Shown piece after piece: positions 4,190-51,313 of a stretch of 64,000 nucleotides of DNA. A program made the translations under genes and the position numbers. The DNA comes from Mobula hypostoma (taxonomy: Eukaryota): positions 167,588,001 to 167,652,000 of the forward strand of contig NC_086097.1 of assembly GCF_963921235.1 (NCBI RefSeq). Reading direction: 5' to 3'. The notes beneath the pieces were generated by a model. That model made no database searches, was not told the DNA's origin, and was given only the letters and a program-made list of their open reading frames with translations. Numbering within the stretch: position 1 is the stretch's first letter; each line of letters begins with the position of its first letter.

Positions 4190-5113
4190 CTGTGGAAAAT
4201 TAGATCAGGTGGGACCCAGGGAGAACTGACTAATTGGACGCACAGTTGGTTTGAAGGTAGGGAGCAGAGTGTGATGGAGGGAGGTTGCTTTTCAGTCCAG
4301 AGGCCTGTGACTAGTGGTATGCCTCAGGTGTCAGTGCTAGGCCCATCGATATTTGTCATCTGTATCAATGATTTGGATGAGAATATACAGGCATGAATAG
4401 TAAGTGTGCAGATAAGACCATGCTGAGGGAGTATCATAGAGTCAGAGACTAAAGCAGCAAGAAACAGTTCCTTCGGCCCACACAGAAAAGTTACCCACCC
4501 AATCCAGTCCCATTTGCCTATGTTTGGCCCTTTTTCGATCCATGTACCTATCCAACTGCCTTTGAAATAGTGTTATTGTAACCGCCTACTTGCTCTGGCA
4601 GCCTGTTCAACATACACACCACCCTCAGCATAAATAAGTTCCCTCTGAGGTCACCTTTAAGTCATAAACAAAGCCCTTGCCATCCTGGAATTCAAAATAG
4701 ATTCATAACATAATCTGGAAAGATTTACAAGGATGGTGTCAGAACCCGAGGCACTGGGTTACAGGGAGAGGTTGGATAGGTCAAAACTCTATTTCTTGGA
4801 GCATAATAGATTGATAAGTGATCTTAGAGAGATGCATAAAGTCATGAGGGGCAGGGATAGGGTGATAGTGCACAGTCTTTTCTTCCAGGGTTGAAGAATC
4901 AAGAGCTAGTGCATATATATAAGTCAAAGTTAAGAGGGAAAAGATTTAATAGGAAGTTGAGAGGCAAATTTTCAGGCACAAACAGTATTACGTATATGGA
5001 ATAAGCTGCCATAGGAAGCAAGTGAGGCAGATACCTTAACAGAATTTAAAAGGAACTTGTACAGGTACATGGATCGGAAAGGTTCAGAAGGTCATGGGCC
5101 AAATGCCAGGTAC
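4190..5113 (+). mobile_element. Degenerate CR1 fragments (with an opposite-strand piece at about 4440-4660), interrupted at 5113
   Basis: Decayed GxPQVSVLGP RT motif near 4317-4345 and a CR1 3' region that resumes at about 7217 after the Rex1 insert. Confidence 0.65.
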
Positions 5114-7215
5114 CATCTCCGCCCTTAAGCACATGAACAAGTGTGTAGATAGAGTGACATCACAAAAACAAATAAAAGCTTTCCCCAATCAGAAACCATG
5201 GATGAACAGAGAACAACAGGAATTCTGCAGATGCTGGAAATTCAAGCAACATACATCAAAGTTGCTGGTGAACGCAGCAGGCCAAGCAGCATCTATAGGA
5301 AGAGGCGCAGTCGACGTTTCAGGCCGAGACCCTTCGTCAGGACCCATGAACAGAGAACAGAGAAGTTCGCCTCCTGCTCAAAGCCAGAGATTCAGCTTTC
5401 AGGTCTGGAGACCAGGAGGCTTACAGCTCAGCCAGGGCCAACCTGAGGAGGGGAATCTCTCAGGTTAAACACATATACAAACAGAGAATCGAGGAGCATT
5501 TCAACTCCTTGGACCCCCGGCACATGTGGCATGGCATACAGGTCATTACAGACTTCAAACCACCTAGTACTGTGCCCCTTTCCAGCTCTGCTTCCCTCCC
5601 TGATGAGCTCAATTACTTGTACGCTCGCTTTGACCGAGAGATCAAGGAGGTCACCCTCAAAGCGGATCTCCCACCTGGTGAACTGCCTCTCTCACTTTCC
5701 ACCTCCGATGTTTGTGCCACCCTGAGCAGGGTGAATGTACGGAAGGCAGCTGGTCCGGATGGAATACCTGGCCGTGTGCTCAGAGTCTGTGCAGGACAGT
5801 TGGCCAGGGTCTTCACGGACATTTTTAATCTGTCCCTGGCCCAGGCAGTTGTCCCCACAAGCTTCAAGATCGTCACCATCGTGCCAGTGCCGAAGCATTC
5901 CACTGCCACAGGCCTGAATGACTTCTGTCCAGTTGCACTCACCCCCATCATTGCAAAGTGCTTTAAGAGACTGTTCTATCACATCTGAAATCCTGTCTGC
6001 CCACTACCCTGGACCCCAGTCAATTTGCCTATTGCACCAACAGGTCAACAGAGGATGCTATCTCCACAGCACTTCACTCTGCCCTGACCCACTTGGGCAG
6101 CCCTTACGGCAGAATGCTGTTCATTGAATGTTCGGCATTCAATACTGTGATCCCCTCCAAGCTGATCGCCAAACTTTGCCAGCTTGGTATCAGTTCATCC
6201 CTCTGCAATTGGACCTTGAACTTTCTGACTAACAGACACCTATCAGTTAAGTTAGACAACCTCTCCTCCTCCACTCTCACCCTGAACACTGGCGTGCCTC
6301 AAAGCTGTGTGCTGAGCCCTCTTCTGTACTCCCTTTTCACCTATGACTGCATTCCTGTACATAGTTCTAACTTCATAATCAAGTTCGCAGATGACACCAC
6401 AGGGTTGGCCTGATCAGAGGGGATGACGAGACAGCCTACAGGGACAAGGTCCAGCACCTGGCTGTGTAATGTGCCGACATCAACCTGGCCCTTAACACCC
6501 AGAAGATCAAAGAGATCATTGTGGACTTCAGGCATGCTAGGAGCCACACTCACATCCCAATCTACATCAACGGAGCTGTAGTGGAGCGTGTATCAAACTT
6601 CAAATTCCTTGGTGTCCACATTTCCGAGGATCTCACCTGGTCCCTGAACTCCTCCATCCTGATCAAAAAGACGCAATAGTGCCTTTATTTCCTGCGGAGC
6701 ATCAAGAAAGCTCACCTCTGTCCCAGGATACTGATGGACTTTTACCGTTGTACCATTGAGAGCAGACTCACCAACTGCATCTCAGTGTGGTATGGCAATT
6801 GTCCCATATCGGACCGCACCCAATTGCCCACCATTGAGAACATCTACCATAAACGCTGCCTGGGCAGGGCGAAAAGCTTTATCAAAGATGCATCTCACCC
6901 TAACCATGGACTTTTTACTCTCCTCCCATCCGGTAGGTGCTACAGGAGCCTCCGCTTCCGCACCAGCAGGCACAGGAAGAGCTTCTTCCCTGAGGCTGTG
7001 ACCCTGCTGAACCTCACATCACAGCGCTAAGCAGTATTGCACCCATATTGTACTGTCTCAGTACTTTCATATTTGTATACTGTAGCACTTACTTTTTATT
7101 CGCGGTTATTTTGTAAATAACATTATTCTTTGCATTTCTGATCAGATGCTAACTGCATTTCGTTGGCTTTGTATCTGTACTCAGCACAATGACAATAAAG
7201 TTGAATCTAATCTAA
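5114..7215 (+). mobile_element. 5'-truncated Rex1/Babar-type LINE with disrupted RT
   Basis: ORF pieces: [63 protein letters not shown]. Frameshifts and stops are present. Ends AATAAAGTTGAATCTAATCTAA. Confidence 0.9.
5308..5343 (-). ncRNA. Minimal type I hammerhead ribozyme motif inside a ~130-bp PLE-derived insert (about 5216-5343)
   Basis: Minus strand reads GUC CUGACGA AGGGUCUCGGCCU GAAAC GUC GAC: conserved CUGANGA/GAAA core, stem II, palindromic ACGU stem III, GUC cleavage triplet and GUC/GAC stem I. Confidence 0.75.
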
Positions 7216-8114
7216 TGAGACTAACTTGGATGGGCATCCTGCTGAGCACGGACCAACTGGGCTGAAGGGTTTGTTTCCATGCTGTATGACACTATGACCC
7301 CACCAGTGCCCAGTTTGGTCTTCACCAGGAGCACTTGCCTCCTGGCCTCATCACAGCCTTGGTTCAAACATGGGGTGAGATGACTGCCAAGATATGCTTG
7401 CTGGTGGGAGCTTGTTGTGCCTGAATTAGCCTCAGAATTTCTTACATCAGTGACCACACTTCAAAATACTTCAGTGGCTGTAAAGTACTTTGGACGGTGA
7501 TAGCTAAATGCACCTTGTTTCAACTTCAGGTGAGATGAGTTTCCAGCCTGATGCTTTTTCAAACAATGTTCATGCCATTGATTAGCTATAGGTTTAGAAA
7601 TTCCATTATAGATACTGAATGAAGAACCCAAAACCTACTTAGACTGTCACTTGCTATTTGCTTTCACTTATAAAATCTGTGAAACAACAAATGCCAACCA
7701 TGTAGAAATACATCTTAATTTACTTTACTAAAAGAATCCGTCACATAGGCTTTAGAATTGGTAGTTAGGCTCCTGACTAGTTCCACTAGATTCTGCTATG
7801 TGCTGGGCAGCATGGAATAGATAGTGATACATATATTTTAATGAATTTTTGATTATGAACATGTTTGCTTTATTTTCACCACCAAATTTACTGAAATTTG
7901 CACTTTATTAAAACTAAAAGTTGGTGCGGCTCTTCACCGAAGTTTATTCTTAACCAGAAAAACAATTGCCAAATACTCATAACTGGAACAAAAAAATTTA
8001 AACACAAGATCCATTCAAGTCCTGAACATAAAGTGGATCCTATGGAAAACTAATCCAAATGGCACTGAAGTCCAAATCAGCAATCAGTATTTTAAAATGA
8101 GCAATTACAATGTG

Positions 8115-8211
8115 TGCAACACACACAAAATGCTAGAGGAACTCAGCAGACCGGACAGTATCTATGGAAAAGAGTACAGTTGACGTTTCGGGCTGAGACC
8201 CTTCAGCAGGA
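8115..8211 (-). mobile_element. PLE 3' terminal fragment with a mutated hammerhead core (CUGCUGA)
   Basis: Same family as 11625-11720; minus strand reads CCTGCTGAAGGGTCTCAGCCCGAAACGTCAAC. Confidence 0.7.
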
Positions 8212-8714
8212 TAAGGTGATAGTGCACAGTCTTTTTTCCAGGGTTGAAGAATCAAGAGCTAGAGCATATATATAAGTTGAAGTTAAGAGGGAAAAGATTT
8301 AGTAGGAAGTTGAGAGGCAAATTTTCAGGCACAAACGGTATTACATATGTGGAATAAGCTGCCACAGGAAGCAAGTGAGGCAGATACATTAACAAAATTT
8401 ATAAGGAACTTGTACAGGTACATGGATAGGAAAGGTTCAGAAGGTCATGGGCCAAATGCCAGGTAGTGGGACTAACTTGGATGGACATTATAATGTGAAC
8501 AAGTTTTCTCTGGTAAATCTACATCTCTCTGGTACAGACACTATATTTAAATTCATTCATATTCAATTACTTGCAGTATTTGACTTATTTTATTTGGTGA
8601 TTCATGTAATCTGTCTGTAATAAATGCAGTTGGCAGCAGAGGGCACTTTATATCACAATCAAGAGCACTGGAGAAGTAAAACCAGGTGTAAATCTTCAGG
8701 ACAGATATACAAGT

Positions 8715-11395: not shown

Positions 11396-11624
11396 TAACA
11401 TCTTCACCTTACTTGCCAGCGAGCAGGCAGGATGTAGGCAGAGCCACTAACACATTAAGTATCATTGGGGTAGAGTCAAGATATCATCTTCCTTCCAGCA
11501 ACAAGACTGAGAGTTAGTGAACCCTATCTTTCTCTTTCCTTCTGTAAGATCTGAACCACATGAAACTGCAGAGAGTTGTGGACACTGCTCAGCACATCAT
11601 GGAAAACAATCTCCCTTCCATGGA

Positions 11625-12244
11625 ACACACATCAAAGTTGCTGGTGAACGCAGCAGGCCAGGCAGCATCTCTAGGAAGAGGTACAGTCGACTTTTCAGGC
11701 CGAGACCCTTCGTCAGGACTAACTGAAGGAAGAGCTAGTAAGAGATTTGAAAGTGAGAGGGGGAGGGGGAGATCCAAAATGATAGGAGAAGACAGGAGGG
11801 GGAGGGATGGAGCCAAGAGCTGGACAGGCGATTGGCAAAAGGGATATGTGAGGATCATGGGACAGGAAGCCCAGGGAGAAGGAAAAGGGAGGGGACCCAA
11901 AGGATGAGCAAGGGGTATAGTCAGAGGGACAGAGGGAGAAAAAGGAGAGAGAGAAAAAGAATGTGTGTATATAAACAAATAACAGATGGGGTTGAGGGGG
12001 AGGTGGGGCATTAGCGGAAGTTTGAGAAGTCAATGTTCATGCCATCAGGTTGGAGGCTACCCAGATGGAATATAAGGTGTTGTTCCTCCAACCTGAGTGT
12101 GGCTTCATCTTTACAGTAGAGGAGGCCGTGGATAGACATATCAGAGTGGGAATGGGACGTGGAATTAAAATGTGTGGCCAGTGGGAGATTCTGCTTTCTC
12201 TGGCGGACAGAGCGTAGGTGTTCAGCAAAACAATCTCCCAGTCT
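11625..12244 (-). mobile_element. Penelope-like element 3' part (GIY-YIG C-terminus, 3' region, hammerhead variant at 11685-11720)
   Basis: Reverse complement of about 13398-14030. The hammerhead reads AGUC CUGACGA...GAAAA GUC GACU, with stem III mutated. Confidence 0.85.
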
Positions 12245-13201
12245 TCAGCAAGGCATTTGTTAAGGTACCTCATGCAAGGCTTATTCAGAAAGTAAGGAGG
12301 CACGTGATCCAAGGGGACATTGCATTGTGGATCCAGAACTGGCTTGCCCACAGAAGGCAAAGAGTGGTCGCAGATGGGTCATATTCTGCATGGAGGTCGA
12401 TCACCAGTGGTGTGCCTTAGGGATCTGTTCTGGGACCCCTACTCTTCACGATTTTTATAAATGACCTGGATGAGAAAGTGGAGGGATGCATTAGTAAATT
12501 TGCTGATGACGCAAATGTTGGGGGTGTTGTGGATAGTGTGAAGAGCTGTCAGAGTTTACAGCGGGACATTGATAGGATGCAAAACTGGGCTGAGAAGTGG
12601 CAGATGGAGTTCAACCCAGATAAGTGTGAGGTGATTCATTTTGGTAGGTCATATATGATGGCAGGATATAGCACTAATGCCAAGACTCTTGGCAGTGTGG
12701 AGGATCAGAGGAATCTTGGGGTTTGAGTCCATAGGATACTCAAAGCTGCTACACAAGCTGACTGTGTCGTTAAGAAGGTTTACGGTACATTGGCCTTCAT
12801 CAACCGTGAGATTAAGTTTAAGAGCCGAGAGGTAACGTTGCAGCTATATAGGACCATGGTCGAACCCCACTTGGAGTACTGTGCTCAATTCTGGTCACCT
12901 CACTCCAGGAAGGACATGGAAACCATGGAAAGGGTACAGAGGAGATTTACAAGGATGTTGCCCAGATTGGGGAGCATGTCTTATGAGAATAGGTTGAGTG
13001 AACTCGGCCTTTTCTCTTTGGAGCGATGGAGGTTGAAAGGTGCCCTGATAGAGGTGTATAAGATGATGAGAGGCATTGATCGTGTGGATAGTCAGAGACT
13101 TTTACCCAGGGCTGAGATGGCTAGCATGAAAGGGCACAGTTTTAAAGTGCTTGGAGGTAGGTACAGAGGAGATGTCAGGGGTAAAATTTTTACGCAGAGA
13201 G
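12245..13201 (+). mobile_element. Internal CR1 RT fragment, truncated at both ends
   Basis: FSKAFVKVPH, WIQNWLAHRRQRVV, ISKFADD, PHLEYCAQFWSP; in-frame stops are present. Confidence 0.9.
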
Positions 13202-13202
13202 A

Positions 13203-14060
13203 AGGCCACATCCTATCTCCCTCCTGGCACTTATCCTTGTAAGCGGAACAAGTGCTACACTTCCTCCCTCACTACCATTCAGCACCCCAGACAGTCCTTT
13301 CAGGTGAGGCGACACTTCAACCTGTGAGTCGGCTAGGATGATATACTGCGTCCGGTGCTCCCAATGTGGCCTTCTATATATTGGTGAGATCTGACGCAGA
13401 CTGGGAGATCATTTTACTGAACACCTACGCTCTGTCCGCCAGAGAAAGCAGGATCTCCTAGTGGCCACACATTTTAATTCCATGTCCCATTGCCATTCTG
13501 ATATGTCTATCCACGGCCTTCTCTACTGTCAAGATGAAGCCACACTCAGGTTGGAGGAACAACACCTTATATTCCATCAGGGTAGCCTCCAACCTGATGG
13601 CATGAACATTGACTTCTCAAACTTCCGCTAATGCCCCACCTCCCCCTCGTACCCCATCCATTATTTGTTTATATACACACACTCTTTTTCTCCCTCTCCT
13701 TTTTCTCCCTCTGACCCTCTCACTATACCCCTTGCCCAGCCTCTGGTTTCCCCCGCTCCCCCTTTTCTTTCTCCCTGGGCCTCCTGTCCCATGATCCTCT
13801 CATATCCCCTTTGCCAATCACCTGTCCAGCTCTTGGCTCCATCCCTCCCCCTCCTGTCTTCTCCTATCATTTTGGATCTCCCCCTCCCCCTCCCACTTTC
13901 AAATTTCTTACTAGCTCTTCCTTCAGTTAGTCCTGATGAAGGGTCTCAGCCCGAAACATCGCCTGTACTTCTTCCTAGAGATGCTGCCTGGCCTGCTGTG
14001 TTCACCAGCAACTTTTGTGTGTGTTGCTTGAAATTCCAGCATCTGCAGATTTCCTCGTGT
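13203..14060 (+). mobile_element. Penelope-like element 3' part with GIY-YIG endonuclease remnant
   Basis: Translation IYCVRCSQCGLLYIGE...EHLRSVRQ...HFNS...RLEEQHLIF...GMNIDFSNFR ends at TAA 13629-13631 and is followed by a pyrimidine-rich 3' region and a hammerhead motif. Confidence 0.88.
13929..13965 (+). ncRNA. Hammerhead ribozyme motif (diverged copy) in the PLE sense strand
   Basis: AGUC CUGAUGA A GGGU CUCA GCCC GAAAC AUC GCCU: the core is intact, stems I and III carry mismatches. Confidence 0.6.
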
Positions 14061-14901
14061 TCCCCTCCATGGACACTGTCTGCACCTCTCACGACCAATA
14101 TAATCAAAAGCTCACCCATCCTGGACTCCAGAACTTTTCTCTCCCCTCCCATTGGACAGAAGATACTAGAATTTGAAAGCACATGCCACCAGCCTCAAAG
14201 CCAGTTTCTACTCCATTATTGTAGGAGTACTGAATGACCTCTTGTACAAAAAGGTGGACTTTACAATCTACCTCATCATGGCCTTGCACCTTATTGTCCT
14301 CCTGCACTGCATGTTCTCTGTAACTATAACCTTATACCCTATGATAACAGCAACAAGAACAATTCTTTAAAGATAGTCTAATGTGAAACAGCATTAATGC
14401 TGGAATCACAAAATAAAATGACCAGGGCCAAACACACGTTCCAATATCTAGGTACCTAATGTGGATCTGGTGTTTTGACTTGTCCTTCAGTTTTCAGATT
14501 GAAATGCTTGGACTGACAAAGGCATGGTGAAGGAAAGGAGACTTGGGTCAAAACAGCCTCCCAAGGGAGATCTTTTTTTCTTTTTCATTCCATTGTCACT
14601 TTCTGCAATAAAATGACATGGTAGCTTGTAAGATACTTTGTGTATTTAATGATGCAGAATCATTTGGTAACATTTATTTGGTTGTACAACTTAAGCCTGA
14701 GAACTCAGGGTCAATTGTTTCACAAAACTTTTAAATTGGTGAAATCAGTATTTCCAGTGATTACAGTACATTTATTTGCCACTTTCTACCATAAAACATA
14801 TTGTAAACTTCTTCATCACTTTTCTTCTTCAGGATTATGACAGGATTCACTTTCTAAGACCCACTTGCAATCTGAACAATTTGTAATTCACAAATGTACA
14901 G

Positions 14902-15240: not shown

Positions 15241-15321
15241 TCGTTTTTTACACAATTTGATTTTCAGACATCATCAAATTGTTAAAGATGACTCTTGATG
15301 TTGGATTTCAAGCAACACACA

Positions 15322-15463
15322 TAAAAATTGCTGGTGAACTCAGCAGGCCAGGCAGCATCTATAAGAAGAGGTACAGTCGACGTTTCAGGTCTCGACCGGA
15401 AACGTCGACTGTACCTCTTCCTATAGGTGCTGCCTGGCCTGCTGCGTTCACCAGCAATTTTTA
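15322..15463. repeat. Inverted repeat (65-bp arms, 12-nt loop) made of two PLE termini
   Basis: 15322-15386 is the reverse complement of 15399-15463 with about 3 mismatches. Confidence 0.9.
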
Positions 15464-15538
15464 AGTGTTCAATGAGAGCTGGTTAGGTGAGATACTTTGT
15501 TGTGAAGCTCATAACACAACTTTCACCCAAATACTATA

Positions 15539-18308
15539 CACTGGGCAACAATGATTTTGCTTCCTGAATACTTTTGGTGTGTCTAATGGATTTGGGGATA
15601 CTGATCATGAAAATTGCCATGATATTTCCCTATCACAGACCATTTTTTTTTTGAAATTGCCTATATTTGTTATTTCAGCTCATAATTCAGGTCAATTAAA
15701 ATGTTGCCCACAATGTAAGCTGAAAAGTTTTCTATGCTACCATTAATAGACCATATTACTCAACTTTCATCTAAATGGTTTCCTTTATATTTAACTTTGA
15801 TTGGTCGTATTAATGCAGTTAAGATTTTTTTTTGCCAAAATTTTTATATGTGTTTCAGGCATTACCAATTTTTGTTCCAAAATCTTTCTTTGATAAAGTT
15901 GACTCTAAAATTTCTTCATTTATTTGGCAGAATAAAAATCCGAGACTGGGTAAAATACATTTACAGAAAGCTAAGAGAGATGGAGGTTTAGCATTACCTA
16001 ACTTTAGATTCTATTATTGGGCAATTAATAAATTAATATTCGACATATGAAATTTTGGTTACTTGACCAGGATATACTATCTATTCCTAAATGGGTAGCA
16101 TTGGAACTACAATCTGTTCAGGGCTATACACTTGGCTCTATTTTAGGTTCCTCTCTCCCTTTTGATTCGAAACGCCTTAAGCAGGTGTCTAACCCGATAG
16201 TTAAATATGCTTTGCGTATTTGGTTTCAATTCAGAAAATTTTTTGATCTTAATCAATTCGGGTTAGCGATTCCTATTTTAGGTAACATATTTTTTCCTCC
16301 CTCTTTTACGGATCGCGCTTTTCAAACTTGGAAGACTAAGGGTATTTTACGGTTTTTGGATTTATTTTTAGATGGTTCCCTTATGTCTTTTGAACAACTA
16401 TCTAACAAATATAATTTATCAAGAATACATTTTTTTAGATATTTGCAAGTTAGAAATTTCCTAAGTACTATACTTTCTTCCTTTCCAATGCTTCCTCCTA
16501 CATATATTTTAGATTCGATAATTAACCTTAATCCATGTCAGAAAGGTGCATCGGCTATGATTTATAATATTATTATGAAACTTAGGAAAGCTCCATTTGA
16601 TAAGATTAGGGTAGATTGGGAACAGGAATTGGGGCTTACCATTTCTGTGGATGATTGGGGGCAGATTTTACAATTAGTTAATACTTCCTCTATTTGCGCT
16701 AAACATTCCCTAATTCAATTTAAAGTTGTTCATAGAGCACATATGTCCAAAGATAAGTTAGCGCGTTTTTACTTGCATATTAATCCTTTTTGTGATAGAT
16801 GTTCGGGGCAGATAGCCTCTTTAACTCATATGTTTTGGTCTTGCCCTACTTTGGAAACTTTTTGGAGAGATATTTTTAATATTATTTCTGAGGTATTAAA
16901 TATAGATATCTCTCCTCACCCTATTACTGCTATCTTTGGACTACCTAAAATTTCTAGTAATCTTTCCCCTTCAGCCCGTAGAATGATTGCATTTCTTACT
17001 TTAATGGCGAAAAGATGTATTTTACAACATTGGAAAGAGCTTAATGCTCCAACTACCTTTTTTTGGTTCTCTCAGACGATATTATGTTTGAATCTGGAGA
17101 AAATTAGAAGTAACCTTTATGATTCTTCATTTAAATTTGAACAGATTTGGGGATCTTTTATTCGATATTTTCATTTAATGTAATATATACCCTTCTTGTT
17201 TTTTTTTCACTGTTTTTAATGGAGGTCGAGATTGAGGACGTGATTTTAAGTTTAACTCTGTTTGGTTTCAAGTTAGCCCATTGCTTTGCTTTGCTTTTAG
17301 TTAGTTGCACGGTGGGTTTTTTTTGGGGGGTTTTTTTTCTTTTTTTCTATCGATATATATATAAAATTAGTATACTATTATGTTACCTTGGTATGTTATG
17401 TTTAAATTACATTGTAGTATTTTTTTTGCATTAATATCTTCTGTAATTTTATTATATTCTAACAGTGTATTAGTGTCTATATGGCTTACCTTTTTGTATA
17501 CTTATTCAATAAAAAGATTTAAAAAGAAAAGAAAAGTTTTCTATCTTGTCCAGGCATGCCTGGGCATGCTTAGGCAGGTGGATGCTGCATGGCAGGACAG
17601 ATTTTAGAGAGGCTATAAATTTCCATGAAGGATTTTGATATTTGAGATAGATGTTTCCAAGAATAACTGATGCCAAGAATAAGGAAGGCATTTTTGTTGG
17701 TCCACAAATCAAACAGGTCATCAATGACAGGCAATTTGAAGAACTTCGTGAGATCAGTGAAAGTCACATGGAAGGCAGTCAAGGATGCTGTTGAAAATTT
17801 TTTTGGCAACTACAGAGCAACGAACTACATGCAGCTGGTTGACAATATGTTTCAACATGCAATGCCATGATGTGCAACATGTCACTAAAGATTCATTTGC
17901 TGCATTCCCATTTAGACTTCTTCATTGCAAATCTTGGTGCTGTCAGTGACGAGCATGGTGAAAGGCTTCACCAGGACATTGCGGTTATGGAAGAATGGAA
18001 TAAGGGCAACTGGAATCAATCAATGTTGGCCGATTGTTGTTGGACACTTAATTAAGAAGTCTCAGACACTGGGTACAAATGGAAATCAGCAACAAAATAT
18101 TTTTAGCTTTGTTGAACTATTGCAAAGGATCAGCACTGTTAGGCAATTAAACACATTACATTCAATAAAAGTTAATTTCTTGTTTCTCAGAAATTCCTAT
18201 GTCATACAAGTAGTCTGAAATTATATTGGTGTTCAGGTTCAAGTGGTCTATCAGAAACAAAAATAATTCTGAGGAAGCAACACTTTCAAAAAACTTTGTT
18301 GTCCAATG
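15539..18308 (+). mobile_element. Internally deleted Chapaev3-like (CMC) DNA transposon, interrupted by an L1-type LINE
   Basis: Terminal inverted repeats (TIRs) CACTGGGCAACAA / TTGTTGTCCAATG, 3-bp TSD ATA, and a transposase C-terminal remnant at about 17600-18055 (EGIFVGPQI, MSLKIHLLHSHLDFF, AVSDEHGERLHQDI, MLADCCWTL). Family name is from motif recall. Confidence 0.75.
15736..17530 (+). mobile_element. 5'-truncated L1/Tx1-clade LINE
   Basis: LTLIGRINAVK, PKFLYVFQALP, GGLALPNFRFYYWA, and a 378-aa ORF (16047-17183) with the zinc knuckle CDRC...HMFWSC. AATAAA and an A-rich tail follow; perfect 14-bp TSD GAAAAGTTTTCTAT (15722-15735 / 17531-17544). Confidence 0.92.
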
Positions 18309-44040: not shown

Positions 44041-44804
44041 TCTTCAGCTTAGTAAAGCAGCCTAATGTGTCACTTGTTAAATAGTTGGTGACGTCACAAG
44101 TGAATCTGTAGCTTGAAACTAATGTTTTGGTTCTGTGTTATAGCAGTTCTTGTATCGGGAATTCATCAATCACAACTCACTGCCAACGTAAAAATTACTA
44201 ATAAAAATTCACTTTCATAAAGCCATAACATAGGAGCAGAATCAATCCATTCAGCTTATTGGTTGTCCCGCCATTCAAACATGGCAGACTTTTTTCTCAC
44301 AAAGAAGAGAAAATCTGCAGATGCAGGAAAGCTGAGCAACACGCACAAAATGATGGAGGAACTCAGCAGCTCAGGCAGCATCTATGAAAAAGAGTACAGT
44401 GGACACTTTAGGCCAAAACCTTTCGACAGGATATTTTTTTTTCTCAGTCGCATTCTCCTACTATATCCCTTAACTTCCTTTCCAATCAAACTTTTCAATC
44501 TTTGCCTTAGAATCCATAGCTCTCTATGGGAATGAATTCACCGTCCTCAAGCTGAAGAAAGACCTCCTCATCTCAGTTTAAGAAGGACACCCATTTATTC
44601 TGAGGCTGTGCCTGTGGATCCTAAACTATCCTAATAATAAATGATCCTTTCCACATCCACTCTAGACAGGCCTTTCAGTATTCTCTAAGTTTCAGTGAGA
44701 TTTCAACCTAATTCTTTCCCACCCCCCCCCCCCAACACACACATACACCCTCGTCCTTGTGAATTTTATCAAGTACGGGATCGGAGAAACTTGTCATTCG
44801 TCAT

Positions 44805-46999: not shown

Positions 47000-48575
47000 A
47001 TTGGAGTCAGAATCAGGTTTAATATCACTGGTATATAGTATGTTGTTTTGAGCAGCAGTACAATGCAATACATAATAAAATGCTATAAATTACAATAAGA
47101 AATATATGTTTAAATAAAATTAGATAAGTAGAGCGAGAAAGTAAAAGAAAAGTGATGCAGTGTAATGAGTTACTTGTCCATCCAGAAATCTGATGGCAGC
47201 GGGAAAGAAGCTATTCCTGAAATATTGTGTGTGTCTTCAGCCTCCTGTACCTCTTCCCTGATGGTAGTAATGAGAAGAGCGCATGCCCTGGCTGATGGGG
47301 GCCCTTAATATTGTGTGTGTCTTCAGCCTCCTGTACCTCTTCCCTGATGGTAGCAATGAGAAGAGCGCATGCCCTGGCTGATGGGGGCCTTTAATATTGT
47401 GTGTGTCTTCAGCCTCCTGTACCTTTTCCCTGATGGTAGCAATGAGAAGAGCGCATGCCCTGGCTGATGGGGGCCCTTAATATTGGATGCTGCCTTTTTG
47501 AGACATTACTTTTTGAAGGTGTCCTTGGTGCTGGAGCCCATAATAGACCTGGCTGAGATTGTAAATTTTTGCAGCTTTTTCCAGCCCTGTGCAGTGGCCC
47601 CTCCATGCCAGACGATGATGTAATCAGAAGGATTGCTCTCCGTGGTACATTTGTAGACATTTGTGAGAGTCTTTGGTGATATACCAAGTTACCTCAAACT
47701 CCCAATGAAATGTAGCCACCTTTGTAATTGCATCAGTATGTTGGGCCCAGCATAGAGTTTCAGAGATGCTGAAACCCAGAAACTTTAAACTGTTCACCCT
47801 TTCTACTGCTGATCCCTCAATAAGGACTGTATGTTCCCTCGACTTTCCCCTCCTAAAGTCCACAATCAATTGCTTGGTCTTACTTTGTTGAGTACAAGGT
47901 TGTTGTTTTGACACCACTCAACCAGCTGTTCTATCTCAATCACTACGCCTCCTCCTCTCCATCTGAAATTCTGCCAACAATAGTTATATCATTGGCAAAT
48001 TTATAGATTGTGTATGAGCTATGCCTAACCACACAGTCGTGGGTGTAGAGAGAATAGAACAGTGGGCTAAGCACACACCCTTGAGTTGCGGCAGTGTTGA
48101 TTGTCAGCGAGGTGGAGATGTTATTTCTGATCCATACTGTTTGTGGTCTTTCGATGAGGAAGTCAAGGAGCCAGTTGCAGAGGGAAGTAGAGAAGACCAG
48201 GCTTTGGATCTTATTGGTTAACACTGAGGATATGATCGTGTTTGAATGCTGAGCTGCAACCATTAAACAGCAGCCTGATAAAGGTATTACTATTGTCCAA
48301 GAGATCCAAGTGGAAAGCCAGTGAGGTTGTATCTACTATAGACCTAGTGTGTCGATAGGAAAATTGCATCAGGTCCAGGTCCTTGCTTAGGCAGGAGTTG
48401 ATTCTGCCCATAACTAATCTCTCAAAGCACTTCATCACAGTAGATGTGAGTGCCACTGGGTGATGGCCTTTGAGGCAGCTAGCCCTGCTCTTCTTGGGCA
48501 CTGCTATAATTGTCACTCTTTTGAAGTAGGTGGGAGCCCCCAACTGCAGCATTGCGAGATTAAAGAATTTATAAA
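47000..48575 (-). mobile_element. Rex1/Babar-type LINE with degenerate RT
   Basis: Minus ORFs PVALTSTVMKCFERLV, QGCVLSPLFYSLYTHDC, KFANDITIVG, KTKQLIVDFRR. Confidence 0.88.
47221..47485. repeat. Tandem triplication of an 86-bp unit
   Basis: Units start at 47221, 47307 and 47393; AATATTG recurs at each junction and at 47479. Confidence 0.95.
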
Positions 48576-50380: not shown

Positions 50381-51050
50381 ATGTAGCCAGCCATTTCTAC
50401 TCTTTTTTTAAAAAAAAAATAATTATTATAACATAGTACCCATTCGACTGACTTTTTCCCCTTGCGTGAAAAAGAACCTTGTCACACTGCTTTTTAACTG
50501 GACCAATGTTTTCTTTTTTTAAAAAAAACTCGAATGCCTCACTGTACTTCAACAGGTAGGTAGACATCTTGAGTTTGTTTAAAACTTCTTTGTTGCCATT
50601 GTTATGTTTTCCTCATTTGCTCATCACCTCCCTCTAGTTTCCCCCTCCTTCCCTTTCTTCCATGGTTCACTGTCCTCTCCTATTACGTTCCTCCTTCTGC
50701 AGCCCATTACCTCTTCTACTTGTCCTCTCCCAACTGCTTACTTCATCCTTCCTCCCCCCACCTATATTCTCACATTTGATTGCTCGGGGTATAATTAGCT
50801 GATGTATACTGAGCGAATTGAACAGTATTTTGAAGCAAATGAAATAGCCAATGATAAGCAAGTGCCAGTTTTGCTGAATGCACAGGGGTTAAAAGGCATA
50901 CTGTTTGCTTAGGAATTTAACTGCTCCAACCAAGCCTGCTGAAATGAGCTTTGCTGATACTGTGAAAGTAACGCAGAAATATTTAGAAACAAAACCATTG
51001 TTGATTGCAAAACACTTTAGGTTTCTGAAGCAAAATTAAAAGGAAATGGA

Positions 51051-51313
51051 AGCAACATACATCAAAGTTGCTGGTGAACGCAGCAGGCCAGGCAGCATCT
51101 CTAGGAAGAGGTGCAGTCGACGTTTCAGGCCGAGACCCTTCGTCAGGACTAACTGAAGGAAGAGTGAATAGGAGATTTGAGTAAGAGAGGTCTCGGCCTG
51201 AAACGTCGACTGCACCTCTTCCTAGAGATGCTGCCTGGCCTGCTGCGTTCACCAGCAACTTTGATGTGTGTTGCTTGAATTTCCAGCATCTGCAGAATTC
51301 CTGTTGTTTGCGT
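51051..51313. mobile_element. Palindromic PLE-terminus insertion
   Basis: 88-bp inverted arms 51050-51137 / 51189-51276 (1 mismatch) and a 15-bp TSD TTAAAAGGAAATGGA (51036-51050 / 51314-51328). Confidence 0.9.
51115..51150 (-). ncRNA. Minimal type I hammerhead ribozyme motif (intact)
   Basis: AGUC CUGACGA AGGGUCUCGGCCU GAAAC GUC GACU; 4-bp stem I AGUC/GACU. Confidence 0.8.

What the first reader, a model, noticed from the sequence alone, without database searches (positions are those of the whole stretch)
8104..8497. PLE end fused to a copy of DNA from 3.3 kb upstream, inside one TSD
Seen: 8212-8465 closely matches about 4858-5113, including the idiosyncratic decay of that old CR1 copy. It is joined directly to a PLE terminus (8115-8211) that stops at the hammerhead's 5' edge, and the unit is flanked by ATTA(C/T)AATGTG (8104-8114 / 8487-8497). 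Inference: one PLE-driven integration switched template onto neighbouring DNA or its transcript, making a retroelement-mediated local duplication.
Basis: partly seen in the sequence, partly recalled or inferred. Interest (0 to 1): 0.72.

Follow-up and report, generated by a model that had tools for sequence, protein, structure and literature searches.

The report
Penelope stub with copied neighbouring DNA
In a vertebrate genome (likely a ray), a 97-base stub of a Penelope-type jumping gene is joined to a 277-base copy of DNA that likely lay about 1 kb away at the time, all inside one short target duplication, most likely because the stub's loose end copied its neighbourhood while the insertion was being closed; such local duplications are already known from human L1 elements and DNA-break repair.

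Summary
Real. 8212-8488 is a 277-bp direct copy (15 substitutions in 276) of one local CR1-type relic, 4858-5112 plus 7217-7237. The copy lacks the 2.1-kb LINE that now splits the donor, so the donor started about 1.15 kb from the nick, not 3.3 kb. It abuts a 97-nt Penelope 3' stub through microhomology (GGA exact; GCAGGA/GCAGGGA gapped) inside an 11-bp duplication (1 of 62,800 control positions). A dispersed subfamily is not supported: a close relative shows two contigs' depth in the diagnostic stretch. All 4 organisms with flank coverage carry both ends; no empty or half-filled allele was seen, so one event (about 0.8) is inferred, not shown. Best model (0.45): the finished cDNA end primed on upstream DNA, copied 277 nt and landed on the second target end. 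Rivals: copy primed from the second end (0.3); later repair patch (0.17; the stub looks slightly older, not significantly). It works like templated local insertions at L1 sites and repair-mediated duplications; my nine searches found no Penelope case with a mapped local donor. The scan noted similar captures before, in this genome and another. No function implicated.

The parts
8104..8114 (+). Left copy of the target-site duplication (8101-8114 if the stagger was 14 nt and the first bases were absorbed in the right-hand seam; inferred)
8115..8211 (-). Tail-less 3' stub of an endonuclease-bearing Penelope-like element; element 3' end at 8115/8116, 5' break at 8211
   Evidence: sense strand fixed by the GIY-YIG frame of the copy at 13203-14062; loose ends pile up at 8115/8116 in all runs
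8177..8211 (-). Minimal hammerhead-like motif, 5' strand of helix I cut off and 3' strand mutated; predicted inactive
   Evidence: no Rfam match
8206..8211 (+). Left seam: stub end GCAGGA against donor GCAGGGA (4851-4857); GGA exact
8212..8488 (+). 277-bp direct copy of the local CR1-type relic in its unsplit state
8487..8497 (+). Right copy of the target-site duplication; its first two bases (AT) are shared with the end of the copied DNA
4858..5112 (+). Donor, first part (decayed CR1-type LINE 3' region; family label recalled, not from a library)
7217..7237 (+). Donor, last 21 nt; the relic itself goes on to about 7300
5113..7216 (+). Later LINE insertion (Rex1/Babar-like, label recalled) that split the donor; time stamp for the duplication
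   Evidence: RVT_1 and PF09004 hits; family 3' end at 7216 (joints); tail not matched by the orthologous contig of organism D
5212..5343 (-). Second, younger Penelope stub nested in that LINE, breaking 1 nt from the same point as the stub at 8211

Best explanation
A 97-base Penelope stub and a 277-base copy of nearby DNA sit inside one target duplication, most likely made in one insertion in which the loose end of the stub's new DNA strand likely paired with a short look-alike about 1.15 kb upstream and copied onward from there. Steps: (1, inferred from family biochemistry) the element's endonuclease cut both strands of an AT-rich site 11-14 nt apart; (2, inferred; orientation shown) the top-strand end at 8114 primed reverse transcription at the tail-less start and the cDNA ended after 97 nt at a point where other copies also end (shown for 3 of 10 ends in the window); (3, inferred; microhomology shown) the free end ...GCAGGA paired with GCAGGGA in the then unsplit CR1-type relic and was extended 277 nt on genomic DNA, probably by a host repair polymerase; (4, inferred; microhomology shown) the extended end ...GCAT paired with the overhang of the second target end (GCAAT...) and fill-in fixed the duplication; (5, order shown by the copy, supported by organism D) a 2.1-kb LINE later split the donor. 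One event about 0.8; this exact geometry 0.45.
For: Single local donor: 94.5% vs 60-72% for other long matches; 28 shared vs 2+2 private states; at position 8329 depth in organism B is 19.2 against 10.0 single-copy, i.e. the two listed contigs, copy and donor. TSD beyond chance. The copy fills exactly the space between stub end and TSD; a control stub at 44300-44431 ends at the same base and is followed, after 2 nt, by its duplicated target. Left microhomology by chance 0.02 exact, 0.0013 gapped (pattern chosen after seeing it). At both seams the top-strand version of a gapped match is the one kept, which is what a top-strand primer moving left to right would leave, and it makes the stagger 14 nt, in line with 13 and 15 bp at two other insertions here. 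Both ends present in 4 of 4 organisms with flank coverage, flanks 0-8.7% apart; B and F contigs cross the stub/copy seam (27-29 letters on the short side, under the tool's 31-letter rule). PAc cuts and extends both strands at AT-rich DNA and starts at two internal sites (PMC11167929). L1 insertions with sequence templated near the site and 824 proximal repair duplications peaking near 1.2 kb are published.
Against: No empty site: C and E have no flank coverage, the other four all postdate the event. The stub has 7 private-looking changes in 96 nt (5 outside CpG) against about 2.7% per lineage for the copy: p=0.19-0.20 for non-CpG, p=0.035 for all, measured against a majority, not the true master. 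D's donor differs from A's copy at 27 of 192 against about 17 expected (p=0.017), so clocks are noisy or conversion has occurred. In run X1 depth at 8329 is 77.5 against 13.6, of which the four listed contigs explain 52; table 8 showed only 32 of about 136,900 pieces. The model needs the strand behind the primer (loop-back or sister chromatid), which is less simple than annealing to resected DNA. PMC11702581 attributes such L1 cases to the reciprocal end.
Confidence: 0.45

Rival explanations
1. One event, but the copy was primed from the second target end: its bottom-strand overhang annealed by AT to the top strand of the donor exposed by resection, was extended 277 nt leftwards (host polymerase, or the element's RT on a + strand RNA in place of the usual inverted second arm) and then annealed to the stub's cDNA end at GCA(G)GGA.
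For: Needs no strand invasion: donor on the opposite side of the break, direct orientation. A primed end keeps its overhang, and the TSD is kept (argument in PMC11702581). The same paper assigns locally templated L1 additions to the reciprocal end. PAc extends both strands; two-armed insertions in this window (11616-14062, 15297-15468, 51042-51308) show that the second end is often extended.
Against: Needs an 11-nt stagger (short against 13 and 15 bp) and a 2-nt primer match, and leaves the GCA shared by donor end and target flank as coincidence; with a 14-nt stagger it predicts an extra A at the right seam that is absent.
Confidence: 0.3
2. Two events: a plain stub (or a two-armed insertion) landed first with its TSD, and a later break at its 5' edge was patched from the neighbouring relic by synthesis-dependent repair.
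For: Stub looks up to twice as diverged as each paralog lineage. Repair-mediated duplications of this size and distance occur without any retroelement, and 5 of 39 proximal ones show microhomology plus a TSD (PMC2671141 Table 1). Earlier notes e1-9806703 and e1-9396630 reached this reading for other loci (unchecked).
Against: The patch would have to begin at the family break point and end within 0-2 nt of the TSD, deleting neither; a single arm forms no hairpin to attract a break. The age gap is not significant for non-CpG changes. None of 4 organisms shows stub without copy at the ends that their contigs cover.
Confidence: 0.17
3. The copied piece was taken from RNA: either an antisense transcript across the relic onto which the RT jumped, or a cryptic exon spliced to the acceptor-like site at the stub's 5' edge and then retrotransposed.
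For: The stub's 5' break coincides with a pyrimidine tract plus AG in longer copies. L1 co-insertion of nearby pre-mRNA has been seen once (PMC10191854).
Against: No GT donor follows the copied segment on the minus strand at the donor, and the 2.1-kb gap has no GT-AG or CT-AC ends. No host-gene domain among 103 frames scanned; the 8 with hits are all retroelement-type domains (short exons would be missed). No RNA run holds the stretch.
Confidence: 0.05
4. The CR1-type piece belongs to a dispersed subfamily or to a ready-made chimeric element, and the nearby match is chance.
For: No whole genome could be searched; short pieces of 85-87% likeness to 8342-8437 exist elsewhere.
Against: Depth at 8329 equals two contigs in B and one each in F and D; all long listed pieces are the copy or the donor; the donor lies about 1 kb away.
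Confidence: 0.03

Closest known systems
L1 insertions carrying sequence templated from DNA near the integration site (Mendez-Dorantes et al., PMC11702581; passages and section 7 read, Fig. S10 not seen) and L1 co-insertion of nearby pre-mRNA (Nam et al., PMC10191854; passages read)
   Same: Retroelement cDNA plus a locally templated segment at the 5' seam of one insertion; microhomology at the joints; TSD kept.
   Different: Element is Penelope-like (GIY-YIG, no poly-A, internal start); germline and fixed across species; the cDNA is a 97-nt stub ending at a family break point; the copy is almost three times the length of the element part.
Repair-mediated duplications, Pace et al. 2009 (PMC2671141; parts 1-2 of 8 and passages read)
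   Same: Single donor within 5 kb (peak near 1.2 kb, which the authors say may be a method artefact), size within range (mean 162, max 619 bp), microhomology at breakpoints, no poly-A; chimeric acceptors exist.
   Different: The break here carries the marks of a Penelope endonuclease and cDNA; RDs were defined after retrotransposition events were filtered out.
Complex insertions of endonuclease-bearing Penelope-like elements (PMC3846280, PMC8557442, passages; PMC11167929, parts 1-2 of 4)
   Same: 5' truncation, optional tail, hammerhead in the pLTR, TSD, microhomology 5' junctions; unrelated DNA captured between solo pLTRs within TSDs and host-DNA spacers are reported in Adineta.
   Different: One arm only; the captured DNA has a mapped donor about 1 kb away in direct orientation; the passages read name no local donor.

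Membership tests
EN+ Penelope-like element (stub) | Belongs to an element with a C-terminal GIY-YIG endonuclease with two cysteines between the motifs | tested here: met
   Stub is 81% like the 3' end of 13203-14062, which translates to IYCVRCSQCGLLYIGE; that 27-aa piece gave no Pfam hit
EN+ Penelope-like element (stub) | Hammerhead motif in the terminal repeat, sense strand | tested here: inconclusive
   Core, helix II and short palindromic helix III visible as described in PMC4209133; no Rfam match; no cleavage test
EN+ Penelope-like element (stub) | Optional 30-40 nt tail, 3' ends at two start sites | tested here: met
   Tail present at 5212, 14062, 44300, 51308 and absent here; loose ends at 8115/8116 with mixed tail consensus
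EN+ Penelope-like element (stub) | PLE-type reverse transcriptase and clade (Poseidon, Neptune, Nematis) | not tested
   No RT part of this element was identified or examined in the window
Repair-mediated duplication (Pace 2009) | Exactly one donor in the genome, within 5 kb, at least 50 bp | tested here: met
   genome-wide uniqueness only through contig depth and listed pieces, not by BLAST
Repair-mediated duplication (Pace 2009) | Microhomology, filler or deletion at breakpoints; no poly-A/T | tested here: met
   GGA and AT seams, no tract
Repair-mediated duplication (Pace 2009) | Empty orthologous site defining the breakpoints | tested here: inconclusive
   4 of 6 organisms filled, 2 of 6 without flank coverage
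Repair-mediated duplication (Pace 2009) | Not a product of retrotransposition | tested here: not met
   A Penelope cDNA end and TSD bound the unit; it works like an RD but is not filed as one
Templated local insertion at a TPRT site (L1 type) | Retroelement 3' end at one TSD copy, local DNA at the 5' seam, one TSD around both | tested here: met
Templated local insertion at a TPRT site (L1 type) | Both parts arise in one event | tested here: inconclusive
   No half-filled allele in 4 organisms, but no empty site; age test p=0.19
Templated local insertion at a TPRT site (L1 type) | Identity of primer end, template (DNA or RNA) and polymerase | not testable with these tools
   Needs many cases or a cell assay
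Spliced chimeric retrocopy / transduction | Splice donor at the end of the captured segment, or donor flanking a source element | tested here: not met
   No GT after the segment on the minus strand and no Penelope copy adjoining the donor start at 4858

The most novel reading that the evidence does not exclude
Penelope integration routinely leaves a free DNA end at a fixed point beside the hammerhead, and that end (or the second cut end), extended by the element's own enzyme, copies neighbouring DNA in a few percent of insertions, making Penelope elements a main generator of small local duplications in ray genomes and giving the duplications a datable, countable cause.
Probability: 0.2. Interest if true: 0.65.

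Novelty: new member of a known kind. Interest (0 to 1): 0.38.

Why it matters
How the 5' end of a Penelope insertion is closed is experimentally unsolved (PMC11167929 leaves these steps open). This locus is a clean single-armed example with a mapped donor, microhomology at both seams, an internal time stamp and orthologs, so it is a good test case for which end primes and how far it reaches. It also links two separately described things, proximal repair duplications and retroelement cuts, in a lineage where these elements are very abundant. The copied DNA here is a dead LINE fragment, so no function is at stake at this site.

Tried and rejected
Whole-genome BLAST and the genome-wide chimera count could not be run: no genome is held. 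Empty-site search: organisms C and E (X9, X14) hold only pieces of the CR1-type part (8247-8438 with 2 differences; 8305-8459 with 4) and no flank; no joint across the unit was among the 15 of 126 and 15 of 131 joints shown. Assembly artefact: rejected, 5.4% divergence and presence in relatives. Splicing as the reason why the copy lacks 2.1 kb: rejected, no splice ends, and other CR1-type copies run straight through this point. Spliced-exon capture: rejected (no GT). Joints clustering at 8204-8211 (8 of 15 shown) were not used as proof of a family break point because the reference stub itself ends there. Rfam gave only unrelated hairpin families. Folding did not recover a full hammerhead as monomer. 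Host gene: none found among 103 frames (102 of the 117 listed, with one 27-aa piece added; overlapping frames in repeats were left out). Look-up by sequence in earlier findings gave nothing. Literature searches; three returned no paper; none listed a Penelope insertion with a mapped local donor; subscription journals are mostly not covered.

Full report
What is there. The unit runs from 8104 to 8497. From left to right on the + strand: an 11-nt target copy, a 97-nt piece of a repeated element on the minus strand (8115-8211), 277 nt of CR1-type LINE 3' region (8212-8488; the family label is recalled, not from a library), and the second target copy, whose first two bases overlap the end of the copied DNA. 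An 11-mer with at most one mismatch at this spacing occurs at 1 of 62,800 control positions, 25 with +/-3 nt slop.

The donor. 8212-8465 matches 4858-5112 at 94.5% (13 substitutions and one gap) and 8468-8488 matches 7217-7237 at 19 of 21. Other CR1-type ends in the window reach 60-72% over long stretches. Against eight such copies, donor and copy share a non-majority state at 28 of 119 informative columns and have 2 private states each. No genome is held, so uniqueness was tested on contigs of public runs. At position 8329 the depth in organism B is 19.2 against 10.0 in unique flank, the sum of the two listed contigs (copy, 3 differences in 259; donor, 17 in 251); F and D show one contig each. 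In the run of organism A the depth is 77.5 against 13.6, of which four listed contigs explain 52, so a few short look-alikes are unlisted; only 32 of about 136,900 pieces were shown. Pieces from other loci reach 85-87% over about 95 nt. A dispersed subfamily is therefore unlikely but not excluded by BLAST.

The time stamp. Between the two donor parts lies a 2,104-bp LINE (RVT_1 and PF09004 hits; its family ends at 7216; Rex1/Babar-like by recall). The copy reads through this point as other CR1-type copies do, and the gap has no splice ends, so the LINE arrived later. In organism D the orthologous contig matches only from 7245 and its first 99 letters do not fit the LINE tail, whereas the contigs of A and B carry 109 letters before 7300, which would start them at 7191, inside the tail; what D's 99 letters are was not shown. 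Before the LINE, the donor started 1,152 bp from the nick and ended 877 bp from it.

The stub. It is the 3' end of an endonuclease-bearing Penelope-like element: the longer copy at 13203-14062 carries a GIY-YIG frame followed by the same end. It lacks the optional tail. Its 5' break falls on the first bases of a minimal hammerhead-like motif (description in PMC4209133, passages; Rfam negative). Of 10 ends aligned, 3 break within 1 nt of this point (8211, 44431, 5343), 2 break inside helix II at fold-back centres and 5 run further. Loose ends behind 8211 agree only 0.37-0.43 with their consensus against 0.59-0.73 at internal branch points, which fits many copies leaving the element near here. 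The stub at 44300-44431 ends at the same base and is followed after 2 nt by its duplicated target: the same stub without a patch. So the break point is a family trait, not something special to this locus; note e1-9943904 said the same.

The seams. Left: stub end GCAGGA against donor GCAGGGA, 3 nt exact (chance 0.02) or 6 of 7 with one gap (0.0013; pattern chosen after the fact). Right: AT exact (0.075), or donor GCAT against target GCAAT with one gap, which would make the stagger 14 nt; two other insertions here have 13 and 15 bp. At both seams the version kept is the one on the incoming top strand.

Relatives. One search listed 18 runs, 15 holding some of the stretch, from 6 organisms. Seven runs were laid. 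Flank divergence from A is 2.4% (B), 5.2% (F) and 8.7% (D). In A, B, F and D the left-flank contig runs 28-31 nt into the stub, and a contig crosses from the copy into the right flank; B and F also cross the stub/copy seam, with 27-29 letters on the short side. C and E have no flank cover. No empty or half-filled allele was seen. Paralog divergence in A is 5.4% (3.1-8.8), about equal to the A-F split, so the event is about that old or a little older. Against the one-event reading: the stub shows 7 private-looking changes in 96 nt (8150, 8153, 8159 confirmed against the family majority; the others read), 5 outside CpG, against 2.7% per lineage (p=0.19-0.20 non-CpG, 0.035 all). D's donor differs from A's copy at 27 of 192 against 17 expected (p=0.017); rate noise or partial conversion between neighbours in the A lineage could explain both, untested.

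Mechanism. PAc, the one PLE purified active, cuts and extends both strands at AT-rich DNA, starts at two internal sites that explain the tail, and inserts uncleaved RNA (PMC11167929, parts 1-2 of 4 read); the stub running through the predicted cleavage point fits that. I infer one integration (about 0.8) because the copy occupies exactly the interval between the family break point and the TSD. A later patch gets 0.17. An RNA template has no support: no splice donor, no host gene among 103 frames, no RNA run. Which polymerase copied the DNA is not testable here; a host repair polymerase is my guess.

What is known. Pace et al. found 824 proximal duplications, mean 162 bp, donor distance peaking near 1.2 kb, with microhomology, 5 of 39 examined also with a TSD (PMC2671141, parts 1-2 of 8 and passages). 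Three L1 insertions with sequence templated near the site are reported in PMC11702581 (section 7; Fig. S10 not seen) and one with nearby pre-mRNA in PMC10191854 (passage; Extended Data Fig. 9g not seen). For Penelope elements, capture of host DNA and of unrelated sequence between solo pLTRs inside TSDs is reported in Adineta (PMC3846280, passages); general structure in PMC8557442 (passages); bioRxiv 10.64898/2026.07.22.740005 (passages) added nothing on junctions. Nine searches listed no Penelope insertion with a mapped local donor; supplements were not read and could hold such cases. Earlier notes of this scan describe at least five local captures at Penelope insertions in this genome and 4 of 73 insertions in another genome; these are unchecked and are leads only.

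Verdict. Observation confirmed with two corrections; interpretation partly supported. It is a new member of a known kind, a local templated duplication at a retroelement insertion, unusual mainly for being a Penelope element, single-armed, and internally dated. Interest 0.38.

Noticed in passing
window 8211, 44431, 5343, 14995, 13931 (5' edge of the hammerhead-like motif): The common break point coincides with a 3' splice-acceptor-like site in longer copies: a pyrimidine tract, then AG, then the first base of the stub. In D. virilis Penelope the intron ends at the 5' end of helix I (PMC4209133). The break point may be a splice junction and not a transcript start.
   Followed up: partly
window 44300-44431: Clean tailed Penelope stub ending at the same base as 8211, with a T-rich target duplication of about 10 bp and a 2-nt TA filler; the stub at 8211 is also followed by TA.
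   Followed up: partly
window 5212-5343: Young tailed stub nested in the LINE; its duplicated target carries an extra 7-nt repeat at the 5' seam, a miniature templated addition.
   Followed up: partly
window 11616-14062: Two inverted Penelope arms (92% over 636 nt) around about 960 nt of CR1-type RT, 13-bp TSD; no close donor for the CR1 piece in the window (best 86% over 140 nt). Already noted as e1-9374415.
   Followed up: partly
window 15297-15468 and 51042-51308: Fold-back Penelope stubs with centres at or near helix II of the hammerhead; 15-bp TSD at the second, none seen at the first.
   Followed up: partly
window 47221-47485: Young tandem repeat with a period of about 86 bp, 98% identical.
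   Followed up: no
window 4330-4860 and 4470-4660: The donor relic is itself interrupted by an inverted CR1-type 3' fragment (4532-4614 matches the donor at 75% on the minus strand).
   Followed up: no
window 7150-7216: Summed depth on the LINE's tail is about 26 times higher in the run of organism F than in that of D, hinting at a lineage-specific burst of this LINE; the tool warns that such depth is no copy number.
   Followed up: no
window 16032-17183: 383-aa open frame with a zf-RVT hit, an L1/Tx1-type LINE end by recall.
   Followed up: no
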